This document shows, piece by piece, positions 33,970 to 58,971 of a DNA stretch of 64,000 nucleotides; within the stretch, counting starts at the first letter, position 1; each line of letters opens with the position of its first letter. The notes beneath the pieces were generated by a model. That model searched no databases. It worked only from the letters and a program-made list of their open reading frames with translations, and was not told where the DNA came from. Both the position numbers and the translations under genes were made by a program. The stretch is from an uncultured bacterium (GTDB lineage: Bacteria > Bacteroidota > Ignavibacteria > OLB7), in contig CBINGZ010000022.1 in NCBI GenBank assembly GCA_966250335.1, forward strand, positions 11,218 to 75,217, given 5' to 3'.

Positions 33970-33971
33970 CG

Positions 33972-35930
33972 ATGAGCCGCAACGGAGCCGTCCCATCCCG
34001 CCGGCCTCTCTCGGCGCCCCTCCTCGGCGCGATCCTTGTGGGGATTGTGTCGCTGGTCCTCTATATCTCCACCATGAGCCCCACGTTCGGATACGTGGAC
34101 AAGGGGGAGATGGCGGCCGTCGCAAGCACCTTCGGGATTCCGCACCCGACCGGCTATCCGACCCTTATCGCTCTCGGATATCTCTGGACGGCGCTGGTTC
34201 CGATGCGGGATGTCGCCGCGCTCAATCTGCTGGCCGCGCTCCTGACGGCCGGGGGGGCCGCTCTGCTGGCGCTTCTGCTGTACGATATTCTGGGGCGCCT
34301 TCGTCCGGGGAGGAGGGAGGATGCCGGTTCCTCCGCCCCTTCCGAGACCGCGCGGAGCGTCGTATCCGCCTCGGCCGCGCTCTTCATCGCCGCCACGGCG
34401 ACATGGTGGGAACAGGGGACGGGGTTCGAGGTCTACTCGCTCCACCTTCTGATGATCCCTCTGGTGATCCTTCTCTGTCTGCGATATGTCGACGAGGAGG
34501 AGGGTTCTACCGCGGAACCGGGAATCCGTCCGACGACGCGCGGGTTCCTCTTCTCGCTCGCCGTCGGTCTCTCATTCACCAATCATCTTGCCACGATACT
34601 CCTTGCCCCCGCTCTTCTCGTCTACACCTTCGCCCGCCTCGGGTTGAACCGGCGGACGGTGGTGCGGTTGATCCCCCTGATGCCCGGTTTCTTTCTGGGG
34701 CTGCTCCCGTATGCGCTGCTGCCGCTTCGCGCCGCCGCCTCTCCCCGGTTCAACTGGGGAGATCCCGTGACGTTCGAGCGGTTCGTCGATCATGTGACGG
34801 GGAGCGCGTTCAGAGGTCTGCTGTTTTCGACCGGCAGCGAGACATTCACCTCGCATCTCGGCTATTTTCTGGCGAAGCTGCCGGCCGAGCTGGGATATCT
34901 CGGCATCCCCGTGGCTCTCGTCGGGATCGTCCGTACCTTCCGCGCTCCTTCCCTGGCTGTCGCGGCTCTCCTTCTCTTCCTGACCTGCGTGGTCATCGCC
35001 AGCGGATACGGGATCGCCGACATCGACGCCTACTATCTGACGGCGTTCGTCGCTCTCGCTCTCTGGAGCGCGGCCGGACTCTTTCTGCTGGCCGAACGGT
35101 TCGGAACGGCGACGGTCTCGGTCTGCGGCCTTCTGCTTCTCGCCTGCGCCCTCTGGTTCAATCACGGCAGGGCCGACAAGGGGGAGGAGACCCAGGTGGA
35201 GGAGACGGCGTGGAACATGCTCTCGAGCCTTCCTCCGAACGCGATCGTCATCTCCTCGCAGTTCAACTACTGGCTGGGGGGGAGCTGGTATCTGCAGGGG
35301 GCCGAAGGGGTTCGGCCGGATGTCACGGTGATCTACGAGAACCTGCTCGGGCTTTCATGGTTCGCCGAACGGCTCAGGGTCGAATATCCCGATATTGTTC
35401 TTCCGACGAACGGAGAGATCGAGAGGTTCACGGAAGCGGCGCGCCGGTATGAGGAGGGGGAGATCTCGTCTGACCCCGGCAGGTTGCAGACTCTCTATCT
35501 GGAGATGGTGAACGCGATCATCGGGTTGAACATCCCGCGCCGTCCCATCTTCGTGACCGGCGATATTCCTCCGCAGATGGGGGCGAACTACAGGCGTGTT
35601 CCCAATTATCTTGCGCTTCGCCTGATGCCGACGGAGGAGTATCTTCCGCAACCTTTTCCCGACTATCGGTTCCGGAGATGGGAGGGCCCCGCCGATCCCT
35701 ACGTAGCGAACCTGCACGAGCTCTACGGAAGGAGTCTCTACGCACGCGGTCTCTACGAGCAGGGGTATGGCCGGGACTCGCTGGCGATGGCATATTTCCG
35801 GTACGCGCTGGAGTTCGATCCCGGGTTCGACACGACAGATCTTCCTCCCATCCCGCTCGACGGGGAATCCCAGGTTCGCGCCACCGCGCGCTTCTTCGGT
35901 TCGTTGCGCCGGGGGCTGGGGAGCAGATGA
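33972..35930 (+). CDS. Polytopic membrane protein, DUF2723/GT-C-fold (ArnT/PMT-like) candidate glycosyltransferase, copy 1 of a tandem pair
   Basis: ATG 33972 (a GTG at 33966 is also possible), overlapping the upstream stop. Multiple hydrophobic segments. The N-terminal conserved block YISTMSPTFGYVDKGEMAAVASTFGIPHPTGYP sits in the first loop, as for the acidic motif of GT-C enzymes. The soluble C-terminal ~250 aa has TPR-like character. ~45% identical to the next gene. Confidence 0.6.
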   Translation: MSRNGAVPSRRPLSAPLLGAILVGIVSLVLYISTMSPTFGYVDKGEMAAVASTFGIPHPTGYPTLIALGYLWTALVPMRDVAALNLLAALLTAGGAALLALLLYDILGRLRPGRREDAGSSAPSETARSVVSASAALFIAATATWWEQGTGFEVYSLHLLMIPLVILLCLRYVDEEEGSTAEPGIRPTTRGFLFSLAVGLSFTNHLATILLAPALLVYTFARLGLNRRTVVRLIPLMPGFFLGLLPYALLPLRAAASPRFNWGDPVTFERFVDHVTGSAFRGLLFSTGSETFTSHLGYFLAKLPAELGYLGIPVALVGIVRTFRAPSLAVAALLLFLTCVVIASGYGIADIDAYYLTAFVALALWSAAGLFLLAERFGTATVSVCGLLLLACALWFNHGRADKGEETQVEETAWNMLSSLPPNAIVISSQFNYWLGGSWYLQGAEGVRPDVTVIYENLLGLSWFAERLRVEYPDIVLPTNGEIERFTEAARRYEEGEISSDPGRLQTLYLEMVNAIIGLNIPRRPIFVTGDIPPQMGANYRRVPNYLALRLMPTEEYLPQPFPDYRFRRWEGPADPYVANLHELYGRSLYARGLYEQGYGRDSLAMAYFRYALEFDPGFDTTDLPPIPLDGESQVRATARFFGSLRRGLGSR

Positions 35931-35967
35931 GTCGCCGAGAACGTCAACGCATGAGTCACATCGTATT

Positions 35968-37995
35968 ATGAGTCAATCGGACGTAAGAGAATCGGCCCCG
36001 GAGGCTTCGAAGGGGCTTCTCGGCGCGCTCACCCCCGCAAGGGCCGCCGCCGTCGTGACGGTACTGGCGTTCGTGCCGTATCTGATAACGATGAATCCGT
36101 CGTACGGGTTCGTCGATAAGGGGGAGATGGCGGCCGTCGCCAGTTCGCTGGGGATCGCTCACCCGACGGGATATCCCACCATCATGCTGCTGGGGTATCT
36201 CTTCGCGAAGCTCCTGCCGGTTCGGGACGCATACGCGCTCAATATCCTTTCGGGACTCCTCACGGCCGGGGGCGCCGGTGTCCTCACCCTCCTCTTCCAT
36301 GAACTCCTCACCCGCTTCGATCTCCCCCGTCCGGCCCCGACTCCCGTGCGAAAAGGGGAGCGGAACAGAGGGAAGGAGGCTCCCCGAAAAGGGGCGGTCG
36401 TTGCGCAGGCACCTCCCTCCGGTATGGAATCGAACGTTCTGCCGGCAGCCCTTGCCGCGCTCTTCACGGCGTTCACCTCCACCTGGTGGAATCAGGGGAA
36501 CGGCTTCGAGGTCTACTCGCTCCATGTGCTTCTGATGGCGATCGTGACCCTCCTCTTCATCAGGTATGTGGAGGGGGAGCGGGCCGCGGACTCGATCGAT
36601 ATCTTCTCGAAGCGGGGAGTGTGGTTTGCCGTCATGCTCGGGCTCTCGTTCACCAACCATCTTACAACGATACTTCTTGCTCCCGCCTTTCTGGTCTTCT
36701 ACTTCATCCGGCTCGGGATCAACGGGGGGGCGTTCCTGAGGATGGGGGGACTGGCCCCCTGGTTCGTGGCGGGACTGCTTCCGTATCTCTGGCTTCCGAT
36801 CAGGGCATCGATGAAGCCCCGGTTCAACTGGGGTGATCCTTCCAACATGAAGAGGTTCTTCGACCACATCACCGGCAAGCAGTATCAGGTCTGGATGTTC
36901 AGCAACGCCGAGACGTGGAGTCAGCAGTCGAAGTTCTTCTTCGGCAATCTTCCGGCCGAGCTTGGATATATCGGACTGGTGATCGTGGCCCTCGGGATCG
37001 TCCGGCTTATCGGGCGGAGCCCGGCCCTTGGGATCAGCGTCGCGGTTCTCTTCCTGACCTGCATCGTCTGGGCCGGCGGGTACGACATTATGGAGATCGG
37101 GCCGTACTATCTGACCGCGATCTTCGCGATCGGGATCTGGGCGCTCTTCGGTCTCTCCTTCCTGCGTGAGCGGATCGGTTCGCGGGGAGCGCTTCTCGCC
37201 GGCGGCGTCCTGGTGCTGGCGACCCTCGCCGTCAACTACTCCTCCAGCGACGAGAGCGGGAACACGCTCGTGGAGGACAAGACCGTGAACATGCTCACGA
37301 CGCTGCCGCAGAACGCCGTGGTCTTCTCCGCGCAATGGGATTTCTGGGTGGCCGGCAGTTTCTACACGCAGGAGGTGGAGGGACTTCGTCCCGATGTGGT
37401 CGTGGTCGATCCGGAACTGATGCGCCGTTCCTGGTATATCGATGAACTCCGGCGCTACTTCCCGGAGTTCATGGCGACGGTCAGGGGGGAAACCGACCGG
37501 TATCTGGTGGAGCTCCACAAGTTCGAATACGAGCTTCCGTACAACGACGCGGTGATCGAAGGGGCGTACATCGGGCTGCTCCGGGCGATGGTGGAGAAGA
37601 ATATGGAGATCCGTCCGGTGCTGGTCACCGGGGATGTCCGCCCGGATATGACCTCCGGGTTCGTGCTGACGCCGTACTATCTGGCGCTGAGGGTCACGCG
37701 CGATCCCGCCTATATTCCGATGGAGTTCCCGAAGTACACCTTCCGCCTGTGGGATCGTGTGGACGGATATACCGCCAAGCTGTGCGAGCTTTACGCGCGG
37801 AGCGCCGTGGGACGGATGCTCTACGAGCGGAAGCACGGACACGACTCCCTCGCCGTCCGGTATGGAGATCTGGCGCTCAGTTTCGACCCGGGATTCGACC
37901 ATGAGCATATCCCCAGTCTGCCGCTCAACAGCGAGGATCAGGTGCGGGGGACGATCGATTTCTTTGCCGCGCTCCGGGGAGAGCTCGGGCGCTGA
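35968..37995 (+). CDS. Polytopic membrane protein, DUF2723/GT-C-fold candidate glycosyltransferase, copy 2 of the tandem pair
   Basis: MSQSDVRESAPEASK...YLITMNPSYGFVDKGEMAAVASSLGIAHPTGYP shares the conserved N-terminal block and overall architecture with 33972..35930 (…WWNQGNGFEVYSLHVLLM… against …WWEQGTGFEVYSLHLLMI…). Confidence 0.6.
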   Translation: MSQSDVRESAPEASKGLLGALTPARAAAVVTVLAFVPYLITMNPSYGFVDKGEMAAVASSLGIAHPTGYPTIMLLGYLFAKLLPVRDAYALNILSGLLTAGGAGVLTLLFHELLTRFDLPRPAPTPVRKGERNRGKEAPRKGAVVAQAPPSGMESNVLPAALAALFTAFTSTWWNQGNGFEVYSLHVLLMAIVTLLFIRYVEGERAADSIDIFSKRGVWFAVMLGLSFTNHLTTILLAPAFLVFYFIRLGINGGAFLRMGGLAPWFVAGLLPYLWLPIRASMKPRFNWGDPSNMKRFFDHITGKQYQVWMFSNAETWSQQSKFFFGNLPAELGYIGLVIVALGIVRLIGRSPALGISVAVLFLTCIVWAGGYDIMEIGPYYLTAIFAIGIWALFGLSFLRERIGSRGALLAGGVLVLATLAVNYSSSDESGNTLVEDKTVNMLTTLPQNAVVFSAQWDFWVAGSFYTQEVEGLRPDVVVVDPELMRRSWYIDELRRYFPEFMATVRGETDRYLVELHKFEYELPYNDAVIEGAYIGLLRAMVEKNMEIRPVLVTGDVRPDMTSGFVLTPYYLALRVTRDPAYIPMEFPKYTFRLWDRVDGYTAKLCELYARSAVGRMLYERKHGHDSLAVRYGDLALSFDPGFDHEHIPSLPLNSEDQVRGTIDFFAALRGELGR

Positions 37996-38114
37996 CGCAA
38001 CCGCGAAACGTCGGCACGGTATCGACGAGAAACGTTATCATTGCCGGAAGGAGCGATGATGCAGTCGACCGGGGGAGAGCCCCCGAACTTTTTCACAGAA
38101 TTGTAGTCAGGCAG

Positions 38115-38639
38115 ATGGACACAGCGTCGAGCGAACCGGGTACCGTCGACAGGTCGAGCGTCGAGGCCGATGGAGAAGTGGAGTTCGTTCATGAGCGGAT
38201 CAAGCAGAAACGATTCGCCAGCACGATCGAGGAGGCGATGGTCGGGCTCATGGTCGCGGCCAGCGAGGTGAACTCCAGGATCTCCCAGATCTGCGAGGAG
38301 TTCGGCGTCACCGTGGCGCAGTACAACGTGCTCCGGATTCTTCGGGGTGTGCATCCGGAAGGGCATCCCCGCTACGAGATCAGCAGTCGGATGATCGACC
38401 GTGCTCCGGACGTCACCCGGCTCATCGATCGTCTGGAGCGGCAGGGGCTGGTGGAACGGATCCGCTCGCCGGAGGATATGCGCCTGTCGATCAGCAGGAT
38501 CACCCCGCACGGTCTCGAACTGCTGGAGCAGGTGCAGCCCCGGCTGAACACCCTCTTCGCCGCGATCACCGAGCGGCTGCCGGAGCAGGATCAGCGCGAA
38601 CTGGCCCGCATCTGCCGCGACCTCTGCCAGATCTGGTAG
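38115..38639 (+). CDS. MarR-family transcriptional regulator
   Basis: Winged-HTH region FGVTVAQYNVLRILRGVHPEGHPRYEISSRMIDRAPDVTRLIDRLERQGLVERIRSPEDMRLSISRITPHGLELLE is a classic MarR pattern; 174 aa. Confidence 0.85.
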   Translation: MDTASSEPGTVDRSSVEADGEVEFVHERIKQKRFASTIEEAMVGLMVAASEVNSRISQICEEFGVTVAQYNVLRILRGVHPEGHPRYEISSRMIDRAPDVTRLIDRLERQGLVERIRSPEDMRLSISRITPHGLELLEQVQPRLNTLFAAITERLPEQDQRELARICRDLCQIW

Positions 38640-38886
38640 GATAGATGGTCGTGTAAATTCTTCGAAATGATCTGCTGTCCGTTTTCAGGAATTCGTACGG
38701 ATTCCGGACAGATTCCGGATCAAGGTCGTGTGTGCCAACACTGAATTTTCCTGAATTTCGGGGAGATATGGTGTTGGCACGATTATTATATGTACCTCCG
38801 CTATCGGTGTGAGGACCGATCAGAATAATTGAATCCGCCCGAGGGCGGAACCAGGTACAGGTACAGGTAAACGAGGAGATTCCCTA
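38640..38886 (+). promoter_or_regulatory. Upstream regulatory region of pilin-like cassette 1 carrying inverted repeats and a TGGCAC box
   Basis: IR CTGTCCG (38675-38681) / CGGACAG (38705-38711). Direct repeat attccgga x2 (38701-38719). Near-perfect IR tGTGCCAACAC (38731-38741) / GTGTTGGCACg (38771-38780), whose right arm contains TGGCAC (38775-38780). Palindrome TCCGCCC-gag-GGGCGGA (38834-38849). SD-like GAGGAG 8 nt before the ATG. Confidence 0.35.
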
Positions 38887-39435
38887 ATGCAGAAGCAGGT
38901 CATTGCCCTCGCGGCAGCGTCCGCCATGGCACTTATCGGCGCGGCCGGAGTGCAGGCACAGTCCGCGTCGGTCAACAGCACCGCGACCATCGTCACGCCG
39001 ATCACGGCAAACGCCACCGCCCCCCTGGCGTTCGGGACGATCAACAAAGGCGCTACATCTTCGGTTGCAGCCACGAGCGCTTCGGCAGGCGCCGCAACGT
39101 TCAGCGGAGATGAGGGGGATAACATCACGGTCTCCGTTCCGGCAACGGCGACGATCAACACGACCTCGGGCGCGGGCTCAAGCATGACGGTCACGCTCAA
39201 CCGCGCTTCGCTGCGGTCGAACACGACGAGCGCCCAGGGATCGGCCACGACGCTCGACGCATCGAGCGGTTCGGCTGCGGCAAACCTGAGCACGGACGGA
39301 AGCGGTGACGGCACCGCCAGCGACGGCCTCGGCCAGCTCTACGTCTGGATCGGCGGCTCGGTCACGCCGGCGGCTGCACAGCAGCGCGGCACCTACAGCG
39401 GCACGTTTACGGTCAGCGCAGTCTATTCGAACTGA
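38887..39435 (+). CDS. Secreted pilin-like subunit, SCPU (spore-coat-protein-U)/DUF4402-like, paralog 1 of 3
   Basis: 182 aa with signal peptide (MQKQVIALAAASAMALIGAAGVQAQ). Low-complexity A/S/T/G-rich beta-type sequence. C-terminal YVWIGGSVTPAAAQQRGTYSGTFTVSAVYSN is like the SCPU/DUF4402 C-terminal strand. ~75% identical to 40944..41480 and 43685..44227. Confidence 0.6.
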   Translation: MQKQVIALAAASAMALIGAAGVQAQSASVNSTATIVTPITANATAPLAFGTINKGATSSVAATSASAGAATFSGDEGDNITVSVPATATINTTSGAGSSMTVTLNRASLRSNTTSAQGSATTLDASSGSAAANLSTDGSGDGTASDGLGQLYVWIGGSVTPAAAQQRGTYSGTFTVSAVYSN

Positions 39436-39492
39436 CCCCGAAGACCCTGTTCGATAGTGAGGGGTAGCCCCCCTGCCCCTAGCTTCGATCTG

Positions 39493-39540
39493 CCGGTCCG
39501 CACGAATAAGATTCTTCGTGCGGACCGGTTTATTTTCTAA
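39493..39540 (+). terminator. Rho-independent terminator after pilin-like gene 1
   Basis: CCGGTCCGCACGAA-taagattc-TTCGTGCGGACCGG (14-bp stem) followed by TTTATTTTC. Confidence 0.65.
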
Positions 39541-39671
39541 AGATCTCTCTCTTCTCCGCCCGAATCCGCCGGACGTGAGAGGAAGGAGAAGAGCAAGAAG
39601 TTTTCCGTAAGATGCGCTCGTTGCAATTACGCAGCCCGACCCCGACCCGCGCACCAATCTCCAAGAAAACC

Positions 39672-40622
39672 ATGAGCCGGACCGAACCATCCCAGGAAAC
39701 CCCGACCCCCGAGCCCTCCGGCCTCGAGATGGTGATTCATTCCCGCACACGCGAGATCGTCGAGGGTTTCAAGGTGAGGCGTGTGCTCCCTTCGGCGCGA
39801 AGGCGGATGGTCGGCCCGTTCATCTTCTTCGATCAGATGGGACCGGAAATCCTGACCGCCGGTCGAGCGCTCGACGTGGCTCCGCATCCCCACATCGGGC
39901 TTGCGACGGTTACGTATCTCTTCGACGGCGAGGCGTTCCACCGCGACAGCCTGGGAACACGGCAGCCGATCAGACCGGGAGATGTCAACTGGATGACGGC
40001 GGGACGTGGTATCGCGCACTCCGAGCGGACGCCGGAGAATCTCAGACTGACCGGATCGAAGATGTTCGGCATTCAGTCATGGGTGGCGCTGCCGACGAAA
40101 TATGAGGATACCGATCCGGCGTTCGCGCATCATTCCGCCGGGGAGCTCCCGGTGATCGAGGGGGAGGGAGCGGAGGTCCGTCTGATCGTCGGCGGGATGT
40201 TCGGTTCCCGTTCTCCCGTGCAGACCCTCTCGGAGACCTTCTACGCCGATGTGGCGTTGCGGCAGGGGGTCCGTTTCTCGGTGCCGGTCGATCAGGAGGA
40301 GCGCGCGGTCTACGTTCTGGAGGGGAGCATCGAGATTGCCGAGGAGGAGGGGAGCTACGCCGAAGGGGAGCTTCTGGTCCTCAGGCCGGGAGCCGTCGTG
40401 ACGTTGCGGGCTCCGGAGTCGGCTCCCGCCCGCGTCATGCTGCTGGGAGGGGCGACGATGGATGGTCCGCGGCATATCTACTGGAACTTCGTCTCCAGCT
40501 CCCGCGAGCGGATCGAGCAGGCGAAAGAGGATTGGAGGGAAGGGCGATTCGCTCCCGTTCCCGATGAAACGGAGTTCATCCCGCTGCCGGATGATCCTCC
40601 GCCTCCGGTGTCTTATCCGTAA
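39672..40622 (+). CDS. Pirin-family cupin protein
   Basis: [51 protein letters not shown] matches the pirin N-terminal cupin metal site (HPHRGFETVTY..GE..HRDS.G....GD.QWMTAG.GI.HSE). The start could alternatively be ATG 39729 (MVIHS). Confidence 0.85.
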
Positions 40623-40740
40623 GCTTCATACGACTGCTCTGCGAATCTCGGCCGGCGTCCACGCTTCTTTCTCTTCTCCTTCGCGGCCTGAAGGAGCGGT
40701 TCCGGTTTGACCCGATCTTGCCGACCGTATCCCTCCGGAA

Positions 40741-40943
40741 CTTCCGCCACCCTGTCCGAATCCACCCCACAGTCCGACTTCCGGACAATCGCTCAATCTC
40801 AGAATCCTCCATTTCCTCATGATTCCGCTGTTTTCGTTCCTGGCACAATTATGCAGGTGTTATAACGCAGACGGCGATTACGCCGCTCGATCAGACAAGC
40901 AGATAACGAACACGAAATAAACAACGCACTCAGGAACACAGTC
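40741..40943 (+). promoter_or_regulatory. Conserved ~190-bp leader (copy A) of pilin-like cassette 2: IR TGTCCGAA-N20-TTCGGACA-like operator plus TGGCAC box
   Basis: ctgtccgaatccaccccacagtccgacttccggacaat...ttcctggcacaattatgcagg... Near-identical leaders occur at 43497..43684 and 44413..44536. Confidence 0.45.
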
Positions 40944-41480
40944 ATGAAGAACCTCCTCTCGATCCTCGCCCTCTCGGTCATCGCTTCCGCCGCCGCCTTC
41001 GCTCAGTCGGCCTCGGTCACCAGCACCGCCACGATCGTCACCCCGATCACCGCGACGGCGACCGCCCCGCTCGCCTTCGGAACGATCACCAAGGGCGCCA
41101 CGGCGTCGGTTGCCGCCAACAACGCCGCCGCCGGCGCAGTCTCCTTCAGCGGCGACGAAGCCGACAACATCACGATCTCGGTCCCGGCAACCGCGACGAT
41201 CTCGACGACCTCCGGCGCAGGCTCGAACATGACGGTAACGCTCAACCGCGCAGCACTCCGCTCGAACACGACAAGCGCGCAGGGATCTGCCTCGACGCTG
41301 GACGCATCGAGCGGGACGGCAGCGGCGAATCTGAGCACGGACGGCAGCGGTGACGGAACGAACGGCGACGGTCTCGGCCAGCTCTACGTCTGGATCGGCG
41401 GTTCGGTGAGCCCGACGGCGACGCAGCAGCGGGGCAATTACAGCGGCACGTTCACGGTGAGCGCCGTCTACTCGAACTAA
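40944..41480 (+). CDS. Secreted pilin-like subunit, SCPU/DUF4402-like, paralog 2 of 3
   Basis: 178 aa; MKNLLSILALSVIASAAAFAQSASVTSTATIVTPITATATAPLAFGTITKG...YVWIGGSVSPTATQQRGNYSGTFTVSAVYSN; signal peptide. Confidence 0.6.
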   Translation: MKNLLSILALSVIASAAAFAQSASVTSTATIVTPITATATAPLAFGTITKGATASVAANNAAAGAVSFSGDEADNITISVPATATISTTSGAGSNMTVTLNRAALRSNTTSAQGSASTLDASSGTAAANLSTDGSGDGTNGDGLGQLYVWIGGSVSPTATQQRGNYSGTFTVSAVYSN

Positions 41481-41559
41481 GGATGGGACGCCGCTACGCG
41501 GCTTCGAACAAGAGCATGGAACATGCGGAGGCGCGACGGCGCGACTCTCTTACCCCGGT

Positions 41560-41595
41560 ATCCTCGCGGAAGGCGTTTCCGCGAGGATTTTTTTA
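41560..41595 (+). terminator. Rho-independent terminator after pilin-like gene 2
   Basis: ATCCTCGCGGAA-ggcgt-TTCCGCGAGGAT followed by TTTTTTT. The same stem sequence recurs after pilin gene 3. Confidence 0.65.
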
Positions 41596-41725
41596 TGATG
41601 GTGCAGTGTGGTCGATCGTCTCTTGATCTCACCGATCGAATTTGAGAGCAAGCCTCGGAGTGCGAGGGGGCTGTGCGGGTTGGTAGATTGCATCCCGTTG
41701 CCTGAGAGATGATCGAAAACGCGCC

Positions 41726-42814
41726 ATGAAGAGATCAATGAACAGAGAAAGAGCCCCCCTCATCGAACACGATCCCCGCTGGGCTCTGGTCGCGGCTCGT
41801 GACCGGAACGCGGACGGAACGTTCTACTACGCGGTCGTGACCACGGGAGTCTACTGTCGCCCATCGTGTCCGGCCCGGCTTCCCCGCCCGGAGAATGTGA
41901 CCTTCCACACGACACGTGAGGAGGCCGAACGGGCCGGGTTCCGTCCCTGTCGCCGCTGCCGTCCGGAGATGCCGTCGCTGGCGGAAGAGCATGCGGCAAG
42001 GGTCACCGAGGCGTGCCGGATCATCGAAGAGTCGGAGACGCCTCCCGGTCTGGATGAGCTGGCGAGACGGGTAGGAGTGAGCCGGTACCATTTTCACCGC
42101 CTCTTCAGGCAGAGTACAGGACTCACTCCCAGAGAGTACGCGGCGGCGCATCGCGGAAAGCGGGTGCGAAGCGCGCTCGTCGGCGGCGCGTCGGTGACGG
42201 AGGCGATCTACGATGCGGGCTACAACTCCAACGGCCGTTTCTACGAACAATCAAACCGGATGCTTGGAATGACCCCTACCAGCTATCGCGCCGGCGGCGC
42301 GGAGACCGATATCCGCTTTGCCGTCGGCGAATGCTCGCTCGGCTCGATCCTTGTGGCGAGCAGCGACAAGGGAGTATGCGCGATCCTCATGGGAGATGAT
42401 CCCGACGAGCTGACGCGCGACCTTCAGGACCGTTTTCCCCGAGCTCATCTGATCGGTGGGGAGAAGGAATTCGAGGAGCTCGTCGCCCGCGTCGTCGGGT
42501 TCGTCGAGACACCCCGCATCGGACTCGATCTGCCGCTGGATGTGCGGGGAACCGCGTTCCAGCAGCGGGTCTGGCAGGCGTTGTGCCGGATTCCGGCGGG
42601 GAAGACCGCAAGCTATACCGAGATCGCCGAGCAGATCGGTTCGCCGAAGTCGGTGCGGGCCGTGGCGCAGGCGTGTGCCGCGAACGCGATTGCCGTCGCG
42701 ATCCCCTGTCACCGTGTGGTCAGGACGGATGGAGGGCTCTCCGGATATCGGTGGGGAGTTGAACGGAAACGGGCGCTGCTGGAGAAGGAGGGAGCGTATG
42801 AAGGGAAACCGTGA
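41726..42814 (+). CDS. ada: Bifunctional Ada: Zn-Cys4 methylphosphotriester-DNA methyltransferase / AraC-type HTH / O6-methylguanine-DNA methyltransferase
   Basis: N-terminal Ada Zn-binding motif (VYCRPSCPARL...FRPCRRCRP). AraC HTH (LDELARRVGVSRYHFHRLFRQSTGLTPREY). C-terminal MGMT active site IPCHRVV with preceding QQRVWQAL; 362 aa. Confidence 0.9.
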   Translation: MKRSMNRERAPLIEHDPRWALVAARDRNADGTFYYAVVTTGVYCRPSCPARLPRPENVTFHTTREEAERAGFRPCRRCRPEMPSLAEEHAARVTEACRIIEESETPPGLDELARRVGVSRYHFHRLFRQSTGLTPREYAAAHRGKRVRSALVGGASVTEAIYDAGYNSNGRFYEQSNRMLGMTPTSYRAGGAETDIRFAVGECSLGSILVASSDKGVCAILMGDDPDELTRDLQDRFPRAHLIGGEKEFEELVARVVGFVETPRIGLDLPLDVRGTAFQQRVWQALCRIPAGKTASYTEIAEQIGSPKSVRAVAQACAANAIAVAIPCHRVVRTDGGLSGYRWGVERKRALLEKEGAYEGKP

Positions 42815-43322
42815 AACCGGGACGATCGAGAGGGAAGATCTCCCCGAACGTGTGGAACTCCTGGAGTGGAAGAGGATATCGGACGATCTCGACGACCGCG
42901 GATATGCCGTGATAAGCGGACTTCCCAGCCCCGAAGAATGCACGGCCCTCACCGCGCTCTACGATCACGATGATCTTTTCCGCAAGCATGTCGTCATGGA
43001 GCGCCACGGCTACGGACGCGGCGCATACAAATACTTCGACTACCCGCTTCCGGACCCGGTTGCGGCGTTGCGGGGATCACTCTACACGCGTCTTGCGCCG
43101 ATCGCGGACCGCTGGAATGATCTGATGGGGATCGATGTGCGGTTTCCGTCGCGACCGGAGGTGGTGCCGTTAAGAGAGGGGGATGCCGTCATCTTCGCCG
43201 TCCGCCACAGGCCGGTGCGGGGAACACGCGGGATCTACCGGGTCGCGATGCGTCACGGCGTCAGCCGGCTCCGTTCGGGAGGACGTCACACCCTCGGCAT
43301 CATCTTTCATGACGCGACCTGA
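42798..43322 (+). CDS. Small 2OG-Fe(II)-oxygenase-like protein, putative AlkB-type partner of Ada
   Basis: ATG 42798 overlaps the ada 3' end by 17 nt (operon-like). Candidate HxD (HDD in LYDHDDLF), distal His (VRHRP/AMRHG) and RxT-like (GGRHTLGIIF) elements; 174 aa. The assignment rests mainly on ada-alkB synteny, so it is tentative. Confidence 0.45.
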   Translation: MKGNRETGTIEREDLPERVELLEWKRISDDLDDRGYAVISGLPSPEECTALTALYDHDDLFRKHVVMERHGYGRGAYKYFDYPLPDPVAALRGSLYTRLAPIADRWNDLMGIDVRFPSRPEVVPLREGDAVIFAVRHRPVRGTRGIYRVAMRHGVSRLRSGGRHTLGIIFHDAT

Positions 43323-43342
43323 ACGGTAGCGATGACTCGGTA

Positions 43343-43376
43343 ATTCCGGAGGCGCCGGATCGGATCACGACCGCGG
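43343..43376 (+). terminator. GC hairpin after the ada-alkB-like operon (no T tail)
   Basis: GGCGCCG-gatcggatcacgac-CGCGGCGCC. Confidence 0.25.
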
Positions 43377-43496
43377 CGCCTGCCGGATCAATCCGACGTT
43401 TCGCAGGGCTGACTGAGAGACCATCTACCCCATGCCCGGCGGGGTTTCGAGGCTCCCGCGGTCGCCGGTCATCCCTTGAACACCTCCTCCTTTCTG

Positions 43497-43684
43497 TCCG
43501 AATCCACCCCACAGTCCGATTTTCGGACAATTGCCCCCTCCTAAGATCCCCCGTTTTTCCCTGATTCCTCACGTTCCTTCCTGGCACGATTCTGAAGGGG
43601 TTCTACCACAGAACGGCAATCGCGCCAATCGACAACACAGCAGATAACAACAACACGAATACAAAACGCACGCTCAACACTCTC
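43497..43684 (+). promoter_or_regulatory. Conserved leader (copy B) of pilin-like cassette 3 with exact IR TGTCCGAA-N20-TTCGGACA and TGGCACGATT box
   Basis: tctgtccgaatccaccccacagtccgattttcggacaattg ... ttcctggcacgattctgaagg ...; ends at ATG 43685. Confidence 0.45.
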
Positions 43685-44227
43685 ATGAAGAACCTCCTCT
43701 CCATCCTCGCCCTCTCGATCATCGCAACTTCCGCTGCCGTCGCCCAGTCGGCTTCGGTCACCAGCTCCGCCACCATCGTCACGCCGATCACCGCTGCTGC
43801 CACCGCTCCGCTCGCCTTCGGCACGATCACCAAGGGCGCCACCGCCACCGTCGCCGCCAACAGCAGCTCCGCCGGCGCCTTCAACTTCAGCGGTGACGAA
43901 GCCGACAACATCACCGTCTCGGTCCCGGCCACCGTCGTCATCTCGACGACCTCCGGCGCAGGGGCGAACATGACGGTGACGCTGGCGCGGAACGCGATGC
44001 GACACACGGGTCTGGTGAACGTCCCGTCGAACGGCGCGTCGGCCGTGGATGCCTCGAGCGGAACGGTGACGGTTGCTCTCAGCAGCGACAACCAGGGAGC
44101 GGGCGAGAACGGAGACGGTCTGGGTCAGGCATACATGTGGATCGGCGGCTCGGTGACGCCGGCGGCGACGCAGCAGCGCGGCAGCTACAGCGGGACGTTC
44201 ACGGTGAGCGCCGTCTACTCCAACTAA
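43685..44227 (+). CDS. Secreted pilin-like subunit, SCPU/DUF4402-like, paralog 3 of 3
   Basis: 180 aa; MKNLLSILALSIIATSAAVAQSASVTSSATIVTPITAAATAPLAFGTITKG...YMWIGGSVTPAATQQRGSYSGTFTVSAVYSN. Confidence 0.6.
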   Translation: MKNLLSILALSIIATSAAVAQSASVTSSATIVTPITAAATAPLAFGTITKGATATVAANSSSAGAFNFSGDEADNITVSVPATVVISTTSGAGANMTVTLARNAMRHTGLVNVPSNGASAVDASSGTVTVALSSDNQGAGENGDGLGQAYMWIGGSVTPAATQQRGSYSGTFTVSAVYSN

Positions 44228-44304
44228 GGATGGGAGGCCGCGACGCGGCGACAGAAGAAGCATTAACGCAGAGGCGCAGAGGGCTGCGCCTCTCCCAACC
44301 CCCA

Positions 44305-44342
44305 GATCCTCGCGGAGAGCCTTCCGCGAGGATTCTTTTTTC
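44305..44342 (+). terminator. Rho-independent terminator after pilin-like gene 3
   Basis: GATCCTCGCGGA-gagcc-TTCCGCGAGGATTC followed by TTTTTT. It is homologous to the terminator at 41560..41595. Confidence 0.65.
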
Positions 44343-44412
44343 TCTCACCTCTTCTTTCTCTCTTCTTTCTTACCTCTGTGTCCTCTGTGACTCCCTGTTC
44401 ATTTCTCTTCAT

Positions 44413-44692
44413 CTTCTGTCCGAATCCACCCCACAGTCCAACTTTCGGACAATCTCTTCGTTTGAAATCCCTTATTCCTTCATAATTCCGCCGTTTTCGT
44501 TCCTGGCACAATTATGCAGGTATTATCACACAGACGGCGATTATGGATCTGCCTCGACGCGGGACGGCGACGGCGAACCTGAGCACGGACGGAAGCGGCG
44601 ACGGGAGTGGGCGGTTCGGTGAGCCCGACGGCGACGCAGCAGCGCGGCAATTACACCGTCACGTTCACCGTCAGCGCAGTGTATTCGAACTA
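44413..44692 (+). pseudogene. Recombination remnant: conserved pilin leader fused to the 3' ~150 nt of a pilin-like gene (N-terminal ~110 codons deleted, frame disrupted)
   Basis: Leader copy C (ttctgtccgaatccaccccacagtccaactttcggacaatc ... ttcctggcacaattatgcaggtattatcacacagacggcgatta) runs directly into ggatctgcctcgacgc...ggttcggtgagcccgacggcgacgcagcagcgcggcaattacaccgtcacgttcaccgtcagcgcagtgtattcgaactaa. That segment is homologous to the 3' end of 40944..41480 but carries internal deletions; the only ORF (44543..44734) is out of frame with the pilin C-terminus. Confidence 0.6.
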
Positions 44693-44772
44693 AGCCTGCG
44701 GATGCAACACGGAAACTCGCCTGATGAATGGTAATTTGGTTCGGTGCCCGGCTCATCCGGCGCCGAACCGTC

Positions 44773-45648
44773 ATGTTGAACATCTTTATGACGATGCGCA
44801 TTCTCTCGATCACTCTTCTCGCTTTCCTTTCGCTCGCCTCGGCCGTCGTCGCACAGGTCGAGGTTGCTCCCACCAGAGTCATCCTCACCATGCGTGAGCG
44901 GTCCAAGGAGGTCAACGTCTCCAACACCACCGACAGCCCTCTGGAGGTCGACGTCCAGCTCGGCTTCAAGCTGATCACCTCCGATTCGGCGGGTGTGCAG
45001 GGGATCGACTCGGTCGGGACGCCGGAACAGCGCACCAGATCGGCCAGGGAGTGGCTGAAGGCGTTCCCGCGCCGGTTCACGCTCGACCCCCGTTCCTCCA
45101 GAACGGTGCGTGTCCTCGCGACGATACCGGATGCGGCGGAGGAGGGAGAGTACTGGGCACGTCTGATCGTGGCCGGCACCCCGGTCGCCGGATCGGTCCC
45201 TGTCGACGGAGATACGGCGCAGGGGATCGCCACCAATCTCGTCATGCGCCTCGAACTCGATTTCCCGGTGATCGTCCGGAAGGGAAATCCCTCCACCGGC
45301 ATCGAATTCAACGGACTTCAGGTCCGCCGGAGCGCCGCGGAGACGATCGCTCTGCTCGATATGACCAGGACCGGGAACAGCGCCTATCGCGGCACTCTCT
45401 TCGCGACGCTCAAGAACGCGTCGGGGGCCGAGGTCGCCAGGCTCGAGGAGCAGTTTACCACCGAATTCAGGTTCCGGAAGGCGCTCCGCTTCCCTTCCCT
45501 TCCCGACGGCAACTATCTGCTCGAGCTCGAATCGCGCACCGTCAAGAAGGGGAGCGCCAACGATGCGGTGATTCCCTCGACGGACGTGAGGAAGAGCTAT
45601 GCTCTCGCCGTCTCCGGTTCCTCCGTAACTGTTACCATGAAGGATTAA
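44773..45648 (+). CDS. PapD/CsuC-like periplasmic pilus chaperone candidate
   Basis: Signal peptide (MTMRILSITLLAFLSLASAVVAQ), then VEVAPTRVILTMRERSKEVNVSNTTDSPLEVDVQL, which matches the PapD_N first-strand pattern (l.pTRvi....k...l.v.N......lvq.w). ~290 aa, the two-domain chaperone size. It sits between pilin-like genes and a large outer-membrane protein gene. Confidence 0.55.
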   Translation: MLNIFMTMRILSITLLAFLSLASAVVAQVEVAPTRVILTMRERSKEVNVSNTTDSPLEVDVQLGFKLITSDSAGVQGIDSVGTPEQRTRSAREWLKAFPRRFTLDPRSSRTVRVLATIPDAAEEGEYWARLIVAGTPVAGSVPVDGDTAQGIATNLVMRLELDFPVIVRKGNPSTGIEFNGLQVRRSAAETIALLDMTRTGNSAYRGTLFATLKNASGAEVARLEEQFTTEFRFRKALRFPSLPDGNYLLELESRTVKKGSANDAVIPSTDVRKSYALAVSGSSVTVTMKD

Positions 45649-45909
45649 CTCCGACCGTTCTCATCATCATTAACCTAACCCCTCTTCCCGGGAAGCGCTC
45701 CGCGATTCTGTGAAGGGGGGTGAGCCGTACGCGCCTGTTCGTATGTCCGTATCCCGGAGGGACGCGGAGGGAACTGTACGGATTTCAGACATCATTCTCT
45801 TTCCATAAGCCCCATTTTCGCAAGGATTTTGCGGAAATCGACCCTGGCATAATTCTTATACCTTATTATCACAGAGCAGGCCGAGATCAGTGACGACGGT
45901 CGCGAAACA

Positions 45910-46398
45910 ATGACAGAGATCTGGACAATGGCAATCCGACACACGATAGCGATAGTGACGATGATGATCCTCTGCACGGTCACGACGGCGTTCTCACAGA
46001 CCGTCATGGGACTCGACGGTCTCGATTTCGGATCGCTCTATCGTTCGTCGACCGGCAGCATCGAGTATATCTCGAACGCCGCCGCCCAGTTCTCGGTCGT
46101 TGCCAAGGAGAAGAAGACGATCCGTCTTACCGTCACGGTCGTCAACCTCAAGCGCGATTCGAAGACGCTCCCGATCACGGTGACCAACAACGACTGCGCC
46201 TACAGTCTGGATGACGGCGCCAACTGGATCACCTTCTCCACCGGCTCCCTCTATCAGGATATTCCGATCCCGAAGGACAATGACAAGGGGAATCGCGAGA
46301 CGATTCTGGTGAGAGTGGGGGGATCGGTGACGGCATCGGCGACGCAGCAGCGCGGCAACTACAGCGGAACGGTATCTCTCTCCGTATCATACATCTGA
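45910..46398 (+). CDS. Divergent SCPU/DUF4402-like minor subunit (tip/adaptor candidate)
   Basis: 162 aa, hydrophobic N-terminus. C-terminal LVRVGGSVTASATQQRGNYSGTVSLSVSYI is homologous to the major-subunit C-terminus. A TGGCATAATTCTTATA box lies ~110 nt upstream. Confidence 0.5.
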   Translation: MTEIWTMAIRHTIAIVTMMILCTVTTAFSQTVMGLDGLDFGSLYRSSTGSIEYISNAAAQFSVVAKEKKTIRLTVTVVNLKRDSKTLPITVTNNDCAYSLDDGANWITFSTGSLYQDIPIPKDNDKGNRETILVRVGGSVTASATQQRGNYSGTVSLSVSYI

Positions 46399-46429
46399 CA
46401 TCAATAAGGCTTCCCAGATAATCTTCCCG

Positions 46430-56966: not shown

Positions 56967-57785
56967 ATGCTGCAGAAGGTGATGCGATATGGTGCTCCCG
57001 AACTCAAGGCGACCTACGAGCGTAATCTGGGGAAGGGCTTCGTTGTCTCGGCGACGCTCCATCTGATCGTGGCGTTCCTCCTCTTCATGAACAGGGAGAC
57101 GCACGATCCGTCGCGGCCTGCCGGGCTTCTGCTCCCCCCGATCGGAAGCGATACGCTCTCCGTGCCGCTTACGCTGATGAACGTGAAGGTGGGAAAAGTG
57201 GGGGGGGGCGGCGGGAGCCGTACGGTCGAGAAGCCGGAGGGGCAGGCGAAGAAGGGGGCGGAGGATGCCGATCCGAAGCTGAAGACCCCGAACCGCAGAA
57301 CCACGACGGTCGCCGCCGGAGCCGGAAAGGTGACGCCGGTGGCGGACGCGAAGAGCGACAACCGTCCCCGCAGCCCGAACCAGCGCGACACCAACACGAA
57401 CAACGTCCGCCCCGGCGGAAACCCCGGCCAGCATGACCAGGGGAAGGGAGTCGTCGACGCGGGGGGGAGCGGCGGTCCCGGTGTCGGGTTCGGACGCGGA
57501 AGCGGCGTCGGGAATTACTCGGCCGATATGGGGGGGCGCGGGTGGCAGGTACGTCCCAATGCGGTATACCCGAGCGGGTCGAGCGCCGTGGGGGCCGTCA
57601 CCCTCAGCATCACGATTCTTCCCGACGGGAAGATCGGAACTATCGTTCCCGTGAAGAGCGCCAGCGCGGATCTGCTCAAGGCCGCGGTTGCCGGGCTCCG
57701 TCGCGCCAGGGCGGCGGCGCTCCCCGCAGGTGCGGCGCAGTCGGTGCAGAAGGCGTCGATCACCTTCAACTTCAAGCTCAAGTAA
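56967..57785 (+). CDS. TonB-family energy transducer (copy 1)
   Basis: N-terminal TM segment (FVVSATLHLIVAFLLFM), P/K/G-rich linker, C-terminal TonB_C-like domain (YPSGSSAVGAVTLSITILPDGKIGTIVPVKSASADLLKAAVAGLRRA...ITFNFKL). The start could be 56931 or 56982. Confidence 0.7.
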   Translation: MLQKVMRYGAPELKATYERNLGKGFVVSATLHLIVAFLLFMNRETHDPSRPAGLLLPPIGSDTLSVPLTLMNVKVGKVGGGGGSRTVEKPEGQAKKGAEDADPKLKTPNRRTTTVAAGAGKVTPVADAKSDNRPRSPNQRDTNTNNVRPGGNPGQHDQGKGVVDAGGSGGPGVGFGRGSGVGNYSADMGGRGWQVRPNAVYPSGSSAVGAVTLSITILPDGKIGTIVPVKSASADLLKAAVAGLRRARAAALPAGAAQSVQKASITFNFKLK

Positions 57786-57860
57786 AGGGCGGCCGTTCAG
57801 TCGGTAATATCGCAAGATGATTCGACCGGCCGCCTGATCACTTCAACGCAGGTCGCAGCT

Positions 57861-58529: not shown

Positions 58530-58538
58530 GAGGAGCCC

Positions 58539-58946: not shown

Positions 58947-58971
58947 ATCGTGAAGAATATCGGAATCCGTC

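What the first reader, a model, noticed from the sequence alone, without database searches (positions are those of the whole stretch)
40741..44536. Triplicated ~190-bp leader with a perfect inverted-repeat operator (TGTCCGAA-N20-TTCGGACA) ~70 bp upstream of a TGGCAC box
The leaders at 40741..40943, 43497..43684 and 44413..44536 begin with CTGTCCGAATCCACCCCACAGTCC(G/A)A(C/T)TT(C/T)CGGACAAT. The two arms are exact 8-bp reverse complements in copies B and C; copy A has TTCCGGACA. A CCTGGCAC(A/G)ATT box follows ~50-60 bp later, ~105-110 bp before each ATG. Variants of the box also precede pilin 1 (38775) and the minor subunit (ctggcataattctta, ~45800). The inverted repeat is the right size for a dimeric regulator. 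Its position ~70 bp upstream of a TGGCAC element is the geometry of an enhancer-binding-protein UAS plus sigma-54 -24 box. A GC -12 element at near-correct spacing (TGGCACAATTATGCA) exists only in copies A and C, one base too close.
Basis: seen in the sequence. Interest (0 to 1): 0.65.

Follow-up and report, generated by a model that had tools for sequence, protein, structure and literature searches.

The report
Activator-dependent pilin gene promoter module
The repeated stretch in front of five pilus genes is a conserved on-switch (an activator landing site, a built-in DNA bend and a sigma-54-style promoter box) shared by pilus genes across an uncultured bacterial phylum. This is a familiar kind of gene control, with one oddity: the usual second promoter element is missing.

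Summary
The inverted repeat and the TGGCAC box occur where stated and far above chance. They are not a local curiosity. The same module precedes DUF4402 pilus genes in at least 7 Kapaibacteriota MAGs and 6 metagenome contigs (32 instances). It starts 87-90 bp (19 times exactly 89) before [T/C]GGCA[C/T]G-N4-T. Box-to-ATG distance varies from 65 to 138. The 52-54-bp linker carries A/T tracts phased at 10-10.5 bp, suggesting an intrinsic bend. A Y-R step 27-28 nt after the box is the likely start site. An NtrC-type enhancer-binding protein operon (sensor kinase, REC, REC-AAA+-HTH_8 with GAFTGA) adjoins the pilus cluster in five related contigs. Its orthologue lies on a contig that almost certainly belongs to the window's organism. 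Ignavibacteria relatives carry TGGCACG-N4-TTGA promoters next to the homologous activator. Best reading (about 0.6): a sigma-54/bEBP-type pilin promoter. The canonical -12 GC is not conserved, so it is not a canonical member. MarR, RNA-hairpin and recombination-site readings are poorly supported. It is a solid, moderately interesting new variant of a known kind.

The parts
38676..38721 (+). Pilin-1 operator: the 35-bp composite palindrome (38676-38710) plus an 11-bp duplicated proximal half-site, GATTCCGGATC (38711-38721)
   Evidence: Operator PWM score 41.7. The box lies 99 bp from the operator start, which is the standard 89 plus about one helical turn. There are 53 nt between the extra half-site and the box.
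38775..38786 (+). Pilin-1 box TGGCACGATTAT (-24-like element plus the invariant T at box position 12). The predicted start is near 38803.
38887..39435 (+). DUF4402 pilin 1, followed by a strong terminator at 39492-39529
   Evidence: (PF14352, E = 7.7e-9).
40753..40787 (+). Copy A operator TGTCCGAATCCACCCCACAGTCCGACTTCCGGACA. The outer arms and the right inner half-site are kept; the left inner half-site is degenerate.
   Evidence: (PWM score 34.0).
40788..40840 (+). Copy A linker, 53 nt, with phased T-tracts (ATTTC, GATTC, GTTTTC)
40841..40852 (+). Copy A box TGGCACAATTAT. TGCA follows one base too close for a canonical -12. The predicted start is C40868/A40869.
40944..41480 (+). DUF4402 pilin A, followed by a terminator at 41560-41588
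43495..43529 (+). Copy B operator
   Evidence: PWM score 35.3.
43530..43581 (+). Copy B linker, 52 nt, with T-tracts
43582..43593 (+). Copy B box TGGCACGATTCT. There is no GC downstream. The predicted start is near 43610.
43685..44227 (+). DUF4402 pilin B, followed by a terminator at 44305-44334
44417..44451 (+). Copy C operator
   Evidence: PWM score 30.2.
44504..44515 (+). Copy C box TGGCACAATTAT. The predicted start is near 44532.
44543..44694 (+). Truncated pilin remnant (3' fragments of a pilin A-like gene) fused to the start of the copy C leader. Copy C's promoter now faces the chaperone gene.
   Evidence: (families D3, D5 and D16 align it to 41283-41481).
44728..45648 (+). PapD-like chaperone
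   Evidence: PF00345, E = 5.9e-6.
45744..45791 (+). Minor-subunit operator, split. The left arm TGTCCGTATCCCGGA (45744-45758) is displaced by a 13-nt insertion. The right half TGTACGGATTTCAGACA (45775-45791) stays in the standard register, with a virtual operator start 88 bp before the box.
45845..45856 (+). Minor-subunit box TGGCATAATTCT. The predicted start is near 45873.
45910..49021 (+). DUF4402 minor subunit (45910-46398) and usher-like protein (46430-49021; no Pfam hit)
38115..38639 (+). MarR-family gene ending 37 bp before the pilin-1 operator. This is the rival regulator, and it is not conserved next to the module elsewhere.

Best explanation
Each copy is a complete activator-dependent promoter for a DUF4402 pilus gene. 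It is most likely bound by the NtrC-family enhancer-binding protein (REC - sigma-54 AAA+ - Fis-type HTH) of a FIST/PAS-GAF sensor-kinase operon. A 52-54-bp linker with A/T tracts phased once per helical turn bends the DNA. The bend would bring the bound activator against RNA polymerase sitting at [T/C]GGCA[C/T]G-N4-T, a sigma-54 -24 element plus the -15 T. Transcription would start at a conserved pyrimidine-purine step 27-28 nt downstream of the box's first base. The window holds five such units: pilin 1, pilin A, pilin B, the remnant-plus-chaperone unit, and the minor subunit plus usher. The three full-length pilin genes (pilin 1, A and B) each end in their own terminator.

Shown: the conservation, spacing, phasing and gene linkage. 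Inferred: which protein binds, that the sigma factor is sigma-54, and the start site.
For: - The module recurs before DUF4402 major pilins, minor pilins and ushers in at least 7 Kapaibacteriota MAGs and 6 metagenome contigs, 32 instances in all.
- The operator-to-box distance is 89 (19 times), 88 (8), 87 (3), 90 (1) and 99 (1). The box-to-ATG distance ranges from 65 to 138.
- In about 600 kb of held sequence, every operator PWM hit of score 24 or more is paired with a box at that distance.
- Box logo from 29 non-redundant instances: G2, G3 and C4 are 29/29; A5 is 28/29; G7 is 26/29; T12 is 29/29. These are positions 1-12 of TGGCACG-N4-TTGCW.
- Position 28 is C or T in 25/29 and position 29 is A or G in 26/29.
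- AA/TT periodicity in the linker peaks at 10-10.5 bp: mean z = 2.8, 12 of 16 loci have z > 2, and phase coherence relative to the box is R = 0.91. A-tracts and T-tracts substitute for one another.
- There is no sigma-70-like promoter on the + strand between 38600 and 46000.
- A bEBP with GAFTGA/GSFTGA, Sigma54_activat (E = 1.9e-70), REC and HTH_8, together with a REC protein and a PAS/GAF kinase, adjoins the pilus cluster in L010, L020, L046, L035 and L049.
- Its 76%-identical orthologue lies on a contig from the same ENA sample as the window's own contig. Coverage is 7.1 against 7.3, and the tetranucleotide correlation with the window is 0.979, equal to that of the window's own fragment.
- Ignavibacteria-like loci carry a 62-64%-identical bEBP next to pilin-like, chaperone-like and usher-like genes. 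Their promoters are TGGCACG-N4-TTGA/TTGT at canonical spacing, with a different upstream repeat (TCAAAATGA). Their HTH recognition helix also differs (IGRATFYRL against ISRSTxYEL).
- EBP genes next to sigma-54 pilin promoters are a documented pattern, for example PilR/pilA in Geobacter (PMC2725144).
Against: - The defining -12 GC is not conserved. Box positions 13-15 are near-random.
- 12-13 instances, including window copies A, B and C, have TG(C/A) one base closer than canonical. That spacing is reported to inactivate classical sigma-54 promoters (own knowledge).
- No canonical TGGCAY-N5-TTGC was found in 517 kb of these genomes.
- rpoN was not seen in any held sequence, so its presence rests on the existence of GAFTGA activators.
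- The window itself holds no bEBP.
- The activator-operator pairing is correlative only.
- The instances are phylogenetically related, so the logo and phase statistics overstate independence.
Confidence: 0.6

Rival explanations
1. The architecture is the same (upstream palindromic activator site, bent linker, promoter), but the box is read by a different sigma factor or a lineage-specific holoenzyme, for example an ECF-type sigma. The palindrome would then be bound by a conventional activator rather than the AAA+ bEBP.
For: The -12 GC is absent and the TG(C/A) spacing is variable. No canonical sigma-54 promoter was seen in 517 kb. One module (L011, minus strand, 3893) lies upstream of an ECF sigma/anti-sigma pair, and such pairs are often autoregulated.
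Against: The conserved bases sit at about -28 to -22 and -17 relative to the conserved Y-R step. That is the wrong place for -35/-10 elements, and no -10-like conservation exists at box positions 17-27. ECF promoters normally have a strongly conserved -10 (own knowledge). The box matches 12 consecutive positions of the sigma-54 consensus. bEBP operons adjoin the cluster in five contigs. In L011 the ECF gene starts about 720 nt after the box.
Confidence: 0.22
2. The inverted repeat is the operator of the adjacent MarR-family repressor (38115-38639), which would control the pilin genes.
For: The MarR gene ends 37 bp upstream of the pilin-1 operator. MarR proteins bind palindromes (own knowledge).
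Against: A MarR homologue is found in only one other locus, L012, and the pilin there lacks the module. All other module-bearing loci have no MarR within the held flank. The site is centred about 71 bp upstream of the box, not over the promoter. It spans 35 bp with four half-sites, larger than typical 16-20-bp MarR sites (own knowledge).
Confidence: 0.05
3. The repeat acts as a nucleic-acid structure or recombination substrate: an RNA/DNA hairpin (a leader, or the terminator of the upstream gene), or a site for pilin gene conversion or phase variation.
For: Some instances are perfect 15-5-15 hairpins (L007 at -29.8 kcal/mol, L004 at -28.9 kcal/mol). There are several pilin paralogues and a truncated remnant after copy C.
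Against: Hairpin energy is not conserved, ranging from -4.8 to -29.8 with a median of -10.8 against -5.9 for shuffles. Symmetric positions break on one side in 20-50% of sites, and double compensatory changes are rare. There is no T-run after the repeat. It lies upstream of the conserved promoter box at a fixed distance. Each promoter has a single site, so nothing can invert. No recombinase turned up in the Pfam scans of the pilus region (33966-49021) and its downstream side (49702-63839); ORFs upstream of 33966 were not scanned. Rfam gave no match.
Confidence: 0.04

Closest known systems
PilS/PilR - sigma-54 control of the type IV pilin gene pilA (Pseudomonas, Myxococcus, Geobacter)
   Same: A major pilin gene is driven by a -24-type promoter. 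An NtrC-family response regulator binds repeated sites about 80-120 bp upstream. The EBP gene often lies next to its target (PMC2725144; Pseudomonas details from own knowledge).
   Different: Here the pilus is a DUF4402/PapD-like chaperone/usher-like system, not type IV. One regulator would serve many dispersed orphan pilin genes. The UAS sequence is unrelated. The -12 GC is missing. The sensor is a FIST plus PAS/GAF kinase with an extra stand-alone REC protein.
NtrC/glnAp2 and NifA/nifH enhancer-dependent promoters, with an IHF or intrinsic bend
   Same: A dyad-symmetric UAS with multiple half-sites lies about 100 bp upstream. A DNA bend lies between the UAS and the promoter. Promoters that bind sigma-54 weakly lean on a correctly phased bend for specific activation (own knowledge of Hoover 1990, Santero 1992 and Carmona & Magasanik 1997; not re-read here).
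   Different: No IHF site is needed here, because phased A/T tracts appear to supply the bend. The UAS-to-promoter distance is fixed to within about 1 bp across genomes. The -12 element is degenerate in the whole family rather than in single promoters.
Canonical sigma-54 promoter consensus TGGCACG-N4-TTGCW (Barrios 1999; used in PMC3162934 and PMC12316311)
   Same: Positions 1-12 ([T/C]GGCA[C/T]G-N4-T) are conserved, including the invariant GG and the T at -15.
   Different: G-13/C-12 are not conserved. A TG(C/A) occurs one base too close in about 40% of instances. PMC12316311 lists some E. coli sigma-54 promoters with deviant -12 regions, but not a whole conserved family.
MarR-family operators
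   Same: A palindromic site lies next to a marR gene (pilin 1 only).
   Different: The position is far upstream of the promoter, the site is 35 bp with four half-sites, and there is no marR linkage in other genomes.

Membership tests
sigma-54 (-24/-12) promoter | A -24 element TGGCAC with invariant GG | tested here: met
   5 of 5 window copies. GG and C are 29/29, A is 28/29, Y is 29/29 and G7 is 26/29 across non-redundant instances.
sigma-54 (-24/-12) promoter | A -12 element TTGCW with GC exactly 10 nt after GG | tested here: not met
   Only the first T (box position 12, i.e. -15) is invariant, at 29/29. Positions 13-15 are not conserved. Window copies A and C have GC one base too close, and B, P1 and M have none. 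Relatives L035 and L049 have TTGG, and L050 and L051 have TTGA or TTGT, at canonical spacing.
sigma-54 (-24/-12) promoter | No competing -35/-10 promoter; the start site lies about 12 nt after the -12 element | tested here: inconclusive
   There is no sigma-70-like site on the + strand. A conserved Y28-R29 step fits the geometry to within about 2 nt. The start site itself is not mapped.
sigma-54 (-24/-12) promoter | rpoN present in the genome | not testable with these tools
   No RpoN-box match was found in the window or any held locus. Presence is inferred from conserved GAFTGA activators.
bEBP upstream activator sequence (NtrC type) | A dyad-symmetric multi-half-site element 70-150 bp upstream of the promoter | tested here: met
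   A 35-bp composite palindrome whose centre lies 71 bp before the box; 32 instances.
bEBP upstream activator sequence (NtrC type) | A cognate bEBP with an AAA+ GAFTGA domain and a C-terminal HTH, encoded in the genome | tested here: met
   L033 comes from the same sample, has matching coverage, and has a tetranucleotide correlation of 0.979 with the window. It carries a REC-Sigma54_activat-HTH_8 protein with GAFTGA. The homologous operon is adjacent to the pilus cluster in five related contigs.
bEBP upstream activator sequence (NtrC type) | Physical binding of the bEBP to the site | not testable with these tools
   The evidence is correlative only. The HTH recognition helix is conserved (SRSTxY[ED]) in the 7 lineages with the TGTCCGG-type site. 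It differs (GRATFYR) in the 2 lineages with a TCAAAATGA-type site.
MarR repressor operator | The operator overlaps the regulated promoter and co-occurs with a marR gene | tested here: not met
   The site ends 52-54 bp (64 bp at pilin 1) upstream of the box. A marR homologue is present in only 1 other locus, one without the module.
Structured RNA leader / Rfam family | A conserved secondary structure with covariation | tested here: not met
   There was no Rfam hit. Arm pairing is often broken on one side, and hairpin energy is not conserved.

The most novel reading that the evidence does not exclude
Kapaibacteriota, and probably Ignavibacteria, may use a relaxed sigma-54 promoter grammar. Only the -24 element and the -15 T would be required, and the -12 GC would be dispensable (TTGA, TTGG, shifted or absent). 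Promoter strength and specificity would instead come from a rigidly positioned enhancer (89 bp) and an intrinsic A-tract bend. That would be a lineage-wide departure from the GG-N10-GC rule usually treated as universal for sigma-54.
Probability: 0.3. Interest if true: 0.6.

Novelty: new variant of a known kind. Interest (0 to 1): 0.4.

Why it matters
DUF4402 pili have no literature, and Kapaibacteriota are uncultured. This module gives the first concrete regulatory model for them. It names a candidate sensor-kinase/activator pair, a defined 35-bp binding site, a regulon (dispersed orphan pilin genes, minor subunit, usher), and predicted start sites that metatranscriptomes can check. If the sigma-54 reading holds, the family is a natural set of more than 30 promoters lacking the -12 GC. 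Such a set could be used to ask how much the -12 element is really needed when the enhancer position and the DNA bend are fixed. If it does not hold, the fixed-distance architecture still defines a new promoter class for this phylum.

Tried and rejected
- Rfam (gathering thresholds) and tRNA scans of the window found nothing.
- The sigma-70 promoter scan of 38600-46000 found no + strand site.
- The canonical pattern TGGCAY-N5-TTGC gave 0 hits in 517 kb. Looser patterns matched only at chance level, 4 found against about 4 expected.
- The MarR-as-regulator idea was rejected because a homologue occurs in only one other locus, and that locus lacks the module.
- The RNA/DNA hairpin idea was rejected because pairing and energy are not conserved.
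- 5'-UTR folding found 5'-proximal hairpins only in the longer leaders, and none was individually significant.
- The RpoN-box regex found nothing in any held sequence.
- The intergenic region beside the window organism's bEBP operon (L033 3960-4320) has no box.
- A literature search for DUF4402 returned 0 papers. A search for Kapabacteria with sigma-54 or pili returned nothing relevant.
- The ECF-sigma reading of the box was considered because of L011, but the geometry and the lack of a -10 argue against it.
- I did not attempt an RpoN homology search, because the word-indexed tool would return only close relatives of whatever query I could type from memory.


Full report
**What is in the window**

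The region 38.1-49.0 kb encodes, in order:
- a MarR-family protein (38115-38639);
- three full-length DUF4402 pilins: P1 (38887-39435), A (40944-41480) and B (43685-44227);
- a PapD-like chaperone (44728-45648);
- a DUF4402 minor subunit (45910-46398);
- an 863-aa usher-like protein (46430-49021).

Unrelated genes are interleaved: pirin, Ada, and an AlkB-like oxygenase. Each full-length pilin gene ends in a strong intrinsic terminator (39492-39529, 41560-41588, 44305-44334). They are therefore separate transcription units. The organism is a high-GC (about 62%) member of Kapaibacteriota / 'Chlorobiota' known only from metagenomes.

**Checking the observation**

TGTCCG-N23-CGGACA occurs four times, at 38676, 40753, 43495 and 44417, against 0.2 expected. 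TGGCAYRATT occurs five times, at 38775, 40841, 43582, 44504 and 45845, against 0.21 expected. The A/B/C leaders are recovered as repeat families and align throughout.

Small corrections:
- The 8-bp arms are 19 nt apart, not 20.
- The box lies 103 nt before the ATG in A and B.
- Pilin 1 also has the IR, with the same 35-bp span.
- The minor-subunit copy has a 13-nt insertion splitting the site, but its promoter-proximal half stays in register.
- Copy C is a promoter plus the first ~35 nt of leader, fused to 3' fragments of a pilin gene. It now faces the chaperone gene.

**The module is family-wide**

I searched one genome per species with a pilin alignment. This returned 30 loci from six Kapaibacteriota MAGs. 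A metagenome scan added 13 more loci, and activator look-ups added further loci. I extracted the upstream regions of all DUF4402 genes.

The same arrangement appears in 32 instances (31 tabulated, plus L049):
- A 35-bp element, consensus TGTCCGGAATCCGGA-tcgtg-TCCGGATTCCGGACA. In some loci it is a perfect 15-5-15 palindrome, for example L007 and L004.
- A linker of 52-54 nt.
- Then [T/C]GGCA[C/T]G.

The operator-start-to-box distance is 89 (19 times), 88 (8), 87 (3), 90 (1) and 99 (1). The box-to-ATG distance ranges from 65 to 138. The single outlier is window P1. It has an 11-bp duplicated half-site immediately after the operator, about one helical turn, which leaves 53 nt between the last half-site and the box.

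In roughly 600 kb of held sequence, every operator PWM hit of score 24 or more is paired with a box at that distance. The only other hits are the same palindromes read from the other strand. The module also precedes usher genes (L024 3535, L027 1823, L046 2709). Once it precedes a region upstream of an ECF sigma/anti-sigma pair (L011).

Information content is high at positions 1-6, 13-15, 20-24, 29-31 and 33-35. In window copies A-C the left inner half-site is degenerate.

**The linker**

Aligned from the box, A/T content peaks every ~10 nt, at linker positions ~15, 22-26, 32-36 and 42-47. The Fourier amplitude of AA/TT steps peaks at a period of 10-10.5 bp: mean z = 2.8 against shuffles, with 12 of 16 non-redundant loci above z = 2. 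The phase relative to the box is coherent, R = 0.91.

A-tracts and T-tracts replace each other at equivalent positions, for example GAAAAATC in L008 against GATTTC in L005. This points to a structural constraint (an intrinsic bend) rather than base-specific recognition. The loci are related, so the nominal p-values are optimistic. The window's own copies are among the weaker ones.

**The box**

Across 29 non-redundant instances, G2, G3 and C4 are invariant. A5 is 28/29, position 6 is C or T, G7 is 26/29, and T12 is 29/29. These are exactly positions 1-12 of the sigma-54 consensus TGGCACG-N4-TTGCW. Positions 13-15, where T, G and C should be, are not conserved.

About 40% of instances carry TG(C/A) one base closer than canonical. 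This includes window A and C (ATGC) and B (CTGA). L035 and L049 have TTGG at canonical spacing.

Position 28 is a pyrimidine in 25/29 and position 29 a purine in 26/29 (mostly CAG). This is the expected signature of a start site, and it sits within about 2 nt of the sigma-54 geometry. It puts the conserved box at about -28 to -22, which is not where a -35 element would lie. There is no -10-like conservation between positions 17 and 27. No sigma-70-type promoter is detected on the + strand.

**The activator**

A regex scan for GAFTGA and the Walker A motif found an enhancer-binding protein in L010 and L020, just beyond the usher gene. Pfam shows REC, Sigma54_activat (E = 1.9e-70), AAA_lid_14 and HTH_8. 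It is preceded by a stand-alone REC protein and a ~1000-aa PAS/GAF histidine kinase.

The same operon, often with a FIST-domain gene, lies next to the pilus genes in other contigs:
- convergent with the pilus cluster in L046;
- divergent from the pilin in L035 and L049, where the shared intergenic region carries the module.

A 76%-identical orthologue (P0084) lies on contig NODE_793 of ENA sample ERZ27393852. That is the sample holding the window's own contig, NODE_587. Coverage is 7.09 against 7.31. The tetranucleotide correlation with the window is 0.979, identical to that of the window's own fragment and above every other locus. The window's organism therefore very probably encodes this two-component system, unlinked to its pilin genes. 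The window itself has no bEBP or rpoN.

**Out-group support**

In two Ignavibacteria-like genomes (L050, L051), a 62-64%-identical bEBP plus a small kinase lies divergent from a cluster of ~166-aa pilin-like genes, a 270-aa protein and a 940-990-aa usher-like protein. The promoters there read TGGCACG-N4-TTGA(A/G) or TTGT at canonical spacing. They are preceded about 80 bp upstream by a different repeat, TCAAAATGA, inverted or direct.

The Fis-type recognition helix differs consistently between the two groups. It is ISRSTxY[ED] in all seven Kapaibacteriota proteins and IGRATFYR in the two Ignavibacteria. That is what one expects if this protein reads the upstream site. Phylogenetic distance is a confounder.

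**Rivals**

- MarR. A homologue is present in only one other locus, L012, whose pilin lacks the module. The site is also far upstream of the promoter.
- Hairpin. Predicted energies range from -4.8 to -29.8 kcal/mol. Symmetric positions are frequently broken on one side and rarely show double changes. There is no T-run and no Rfam match.
- Recombination or phase variation. There is one site per promoter, so nothing can invert. No recombinase turned up in the Pfam scans of the pilus region (33966-49021) or its downstream side (49702-63839); ORFs upstream of 33966 were not scanned.
- A non-sigma-54 holoenzyme reading the box. This remains the serious alternative, because the -12 GC is missing and no canonical sigma-54 promoter was seen in 517 kb.

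**Comparison with what is known**

Functionally this resembles PilS/PilR-sigma-54 control of pilA, where the EBP gene often neighbours its target (PMC2725144). It also resembles NtrC/NifA promoters, where a bend aligns the enhancer with a weakly binding promoter (own knowledge). Sigma-54 control of pili and the cell exterior is a general theme (PMC3162934). PMC12316311 notes that promoters deviating at -12 exist and escape PSSM searches.

Membership in the canonical sigma-54 promoter family fails on one defining feature, the -12 GC. I therefore describe it as working like a sigma-54/bEBP promoter, not as a canonical member.

**Verdict**

It is a new variant of a known kind: enhancer-dependent pilin promoters with a rigid 89-bp enhancer spacing, a built-in bend and a degenerate -12 element. 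It controls an uncharacterised pilus family in an uncultured phylum. Interest is moderate (0.4). It would rise if the -12-less grammar is confirmed experimentally.

Noticed in passing
window 38732-38741 and 38771-38780: Pilin 1 alone has a perfect 10-bp inverted repeat, GTGCCAACAC-N29-GTGTTGGCAC. Its right arm overlaps the TGGCAC box. It could be a P1-specific repressor site, conceivably for the adjacent MarR.
   Followed up: partly
window 33966-35930 and 35767-37995: Two tandem TMEM260-like protein O-mannosyltransferase paralogues lie just upstream of the MarR/pilin region. The pilins are Ser/Thr-rich, so pilin O-glycosylation is a possibility. A TMEM260-like gene also lies near the bEBP/pilus locus in L035 (18448-21371).
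   Followed up: no
window 6875-15007 and 15867-23939: Two giant ORFs, 2710 and 2690 aa, lie in tandem on the + strand. They were not examined and could be surface adhesins.
   Followed up: no
window 44543-44694: A truncated pilin pseudogene, made of 3' fragments of a pilin A-like gene with internal deletions, is fused to the copy C leader. This looks like the scar of recombination between pilin paralogues, and it leaves a full promoter in front of the chaperone gene.
   Followed up: partly
window 41726-43322: An Ada (methyltransferase/AraC) gene and an 'Oxygenase-NA' gene are inserted between pilins A and B. The oxygenase matches its Pfam model in two stretches and may be damaged.
   Followed up: no
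L011 3893-3770 (minus strand); ECF sigma at 2369-3082, anti-sigma at 1008-2327: A complete module (operator, 53-nt linker, TGGCACG-N4-T, and a pilin-type 5' leader hairpin) points toward an ECF sigma/anti-sigma pair about 720 nt downstream. No pilin ORF lies in between. It could be a regulatory cascade, or a promoter left behind by a lost pilin gene.
   Followed up: partly
L021 about 4780-4960 and L022 about 9780-9920; L022 9459-9383 (minus strand): These pilin upstreams lack the standard module. They have a variant repeat (TTCCCGGAATATTCCCGGAA / TTCCTTGAATATTTCAGGAA) about 87 bp before a TGGTGCC box. On the opposite strand, a canonical-looking TGGTAT-N5-TTGCT precedes a ~75-aa ORF and is conserved in both genomes.
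   Followed up: partly
L050 269-7530 and L051 647-8803 (minus strand): Ignavibacteria-like loci carry a cluster of four to five ~166-aa secreted proteins, a ~270-aa protein and a 940-990-aa CarboxypepD_reg-like protein next to the homologous bEBP. None of the small proteins has a Pfam hit. This may be a related, unannotated pilus family with TGGCACG-N4-TTGA promoters.
   Followed up: partly
L033 1-4003 (minus strand): Six tandem genes alternating between ~197 and ~255 aa, with no Pfam hits, lie next to the window organism's FIST-kinase-REC-bEBP operon. The intergenic region has no TGGCA box.
   Followed up: partly
L004-L009, L011, L013, L014, L017, L018: Most module-bearing major pilin genes are orphans with no chaperone or usher within 10 kb, and there are several per genome. 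This suggests a repertoire of interchangeable major subunits served by one or a few assembly clusters.
   Followed up: partly
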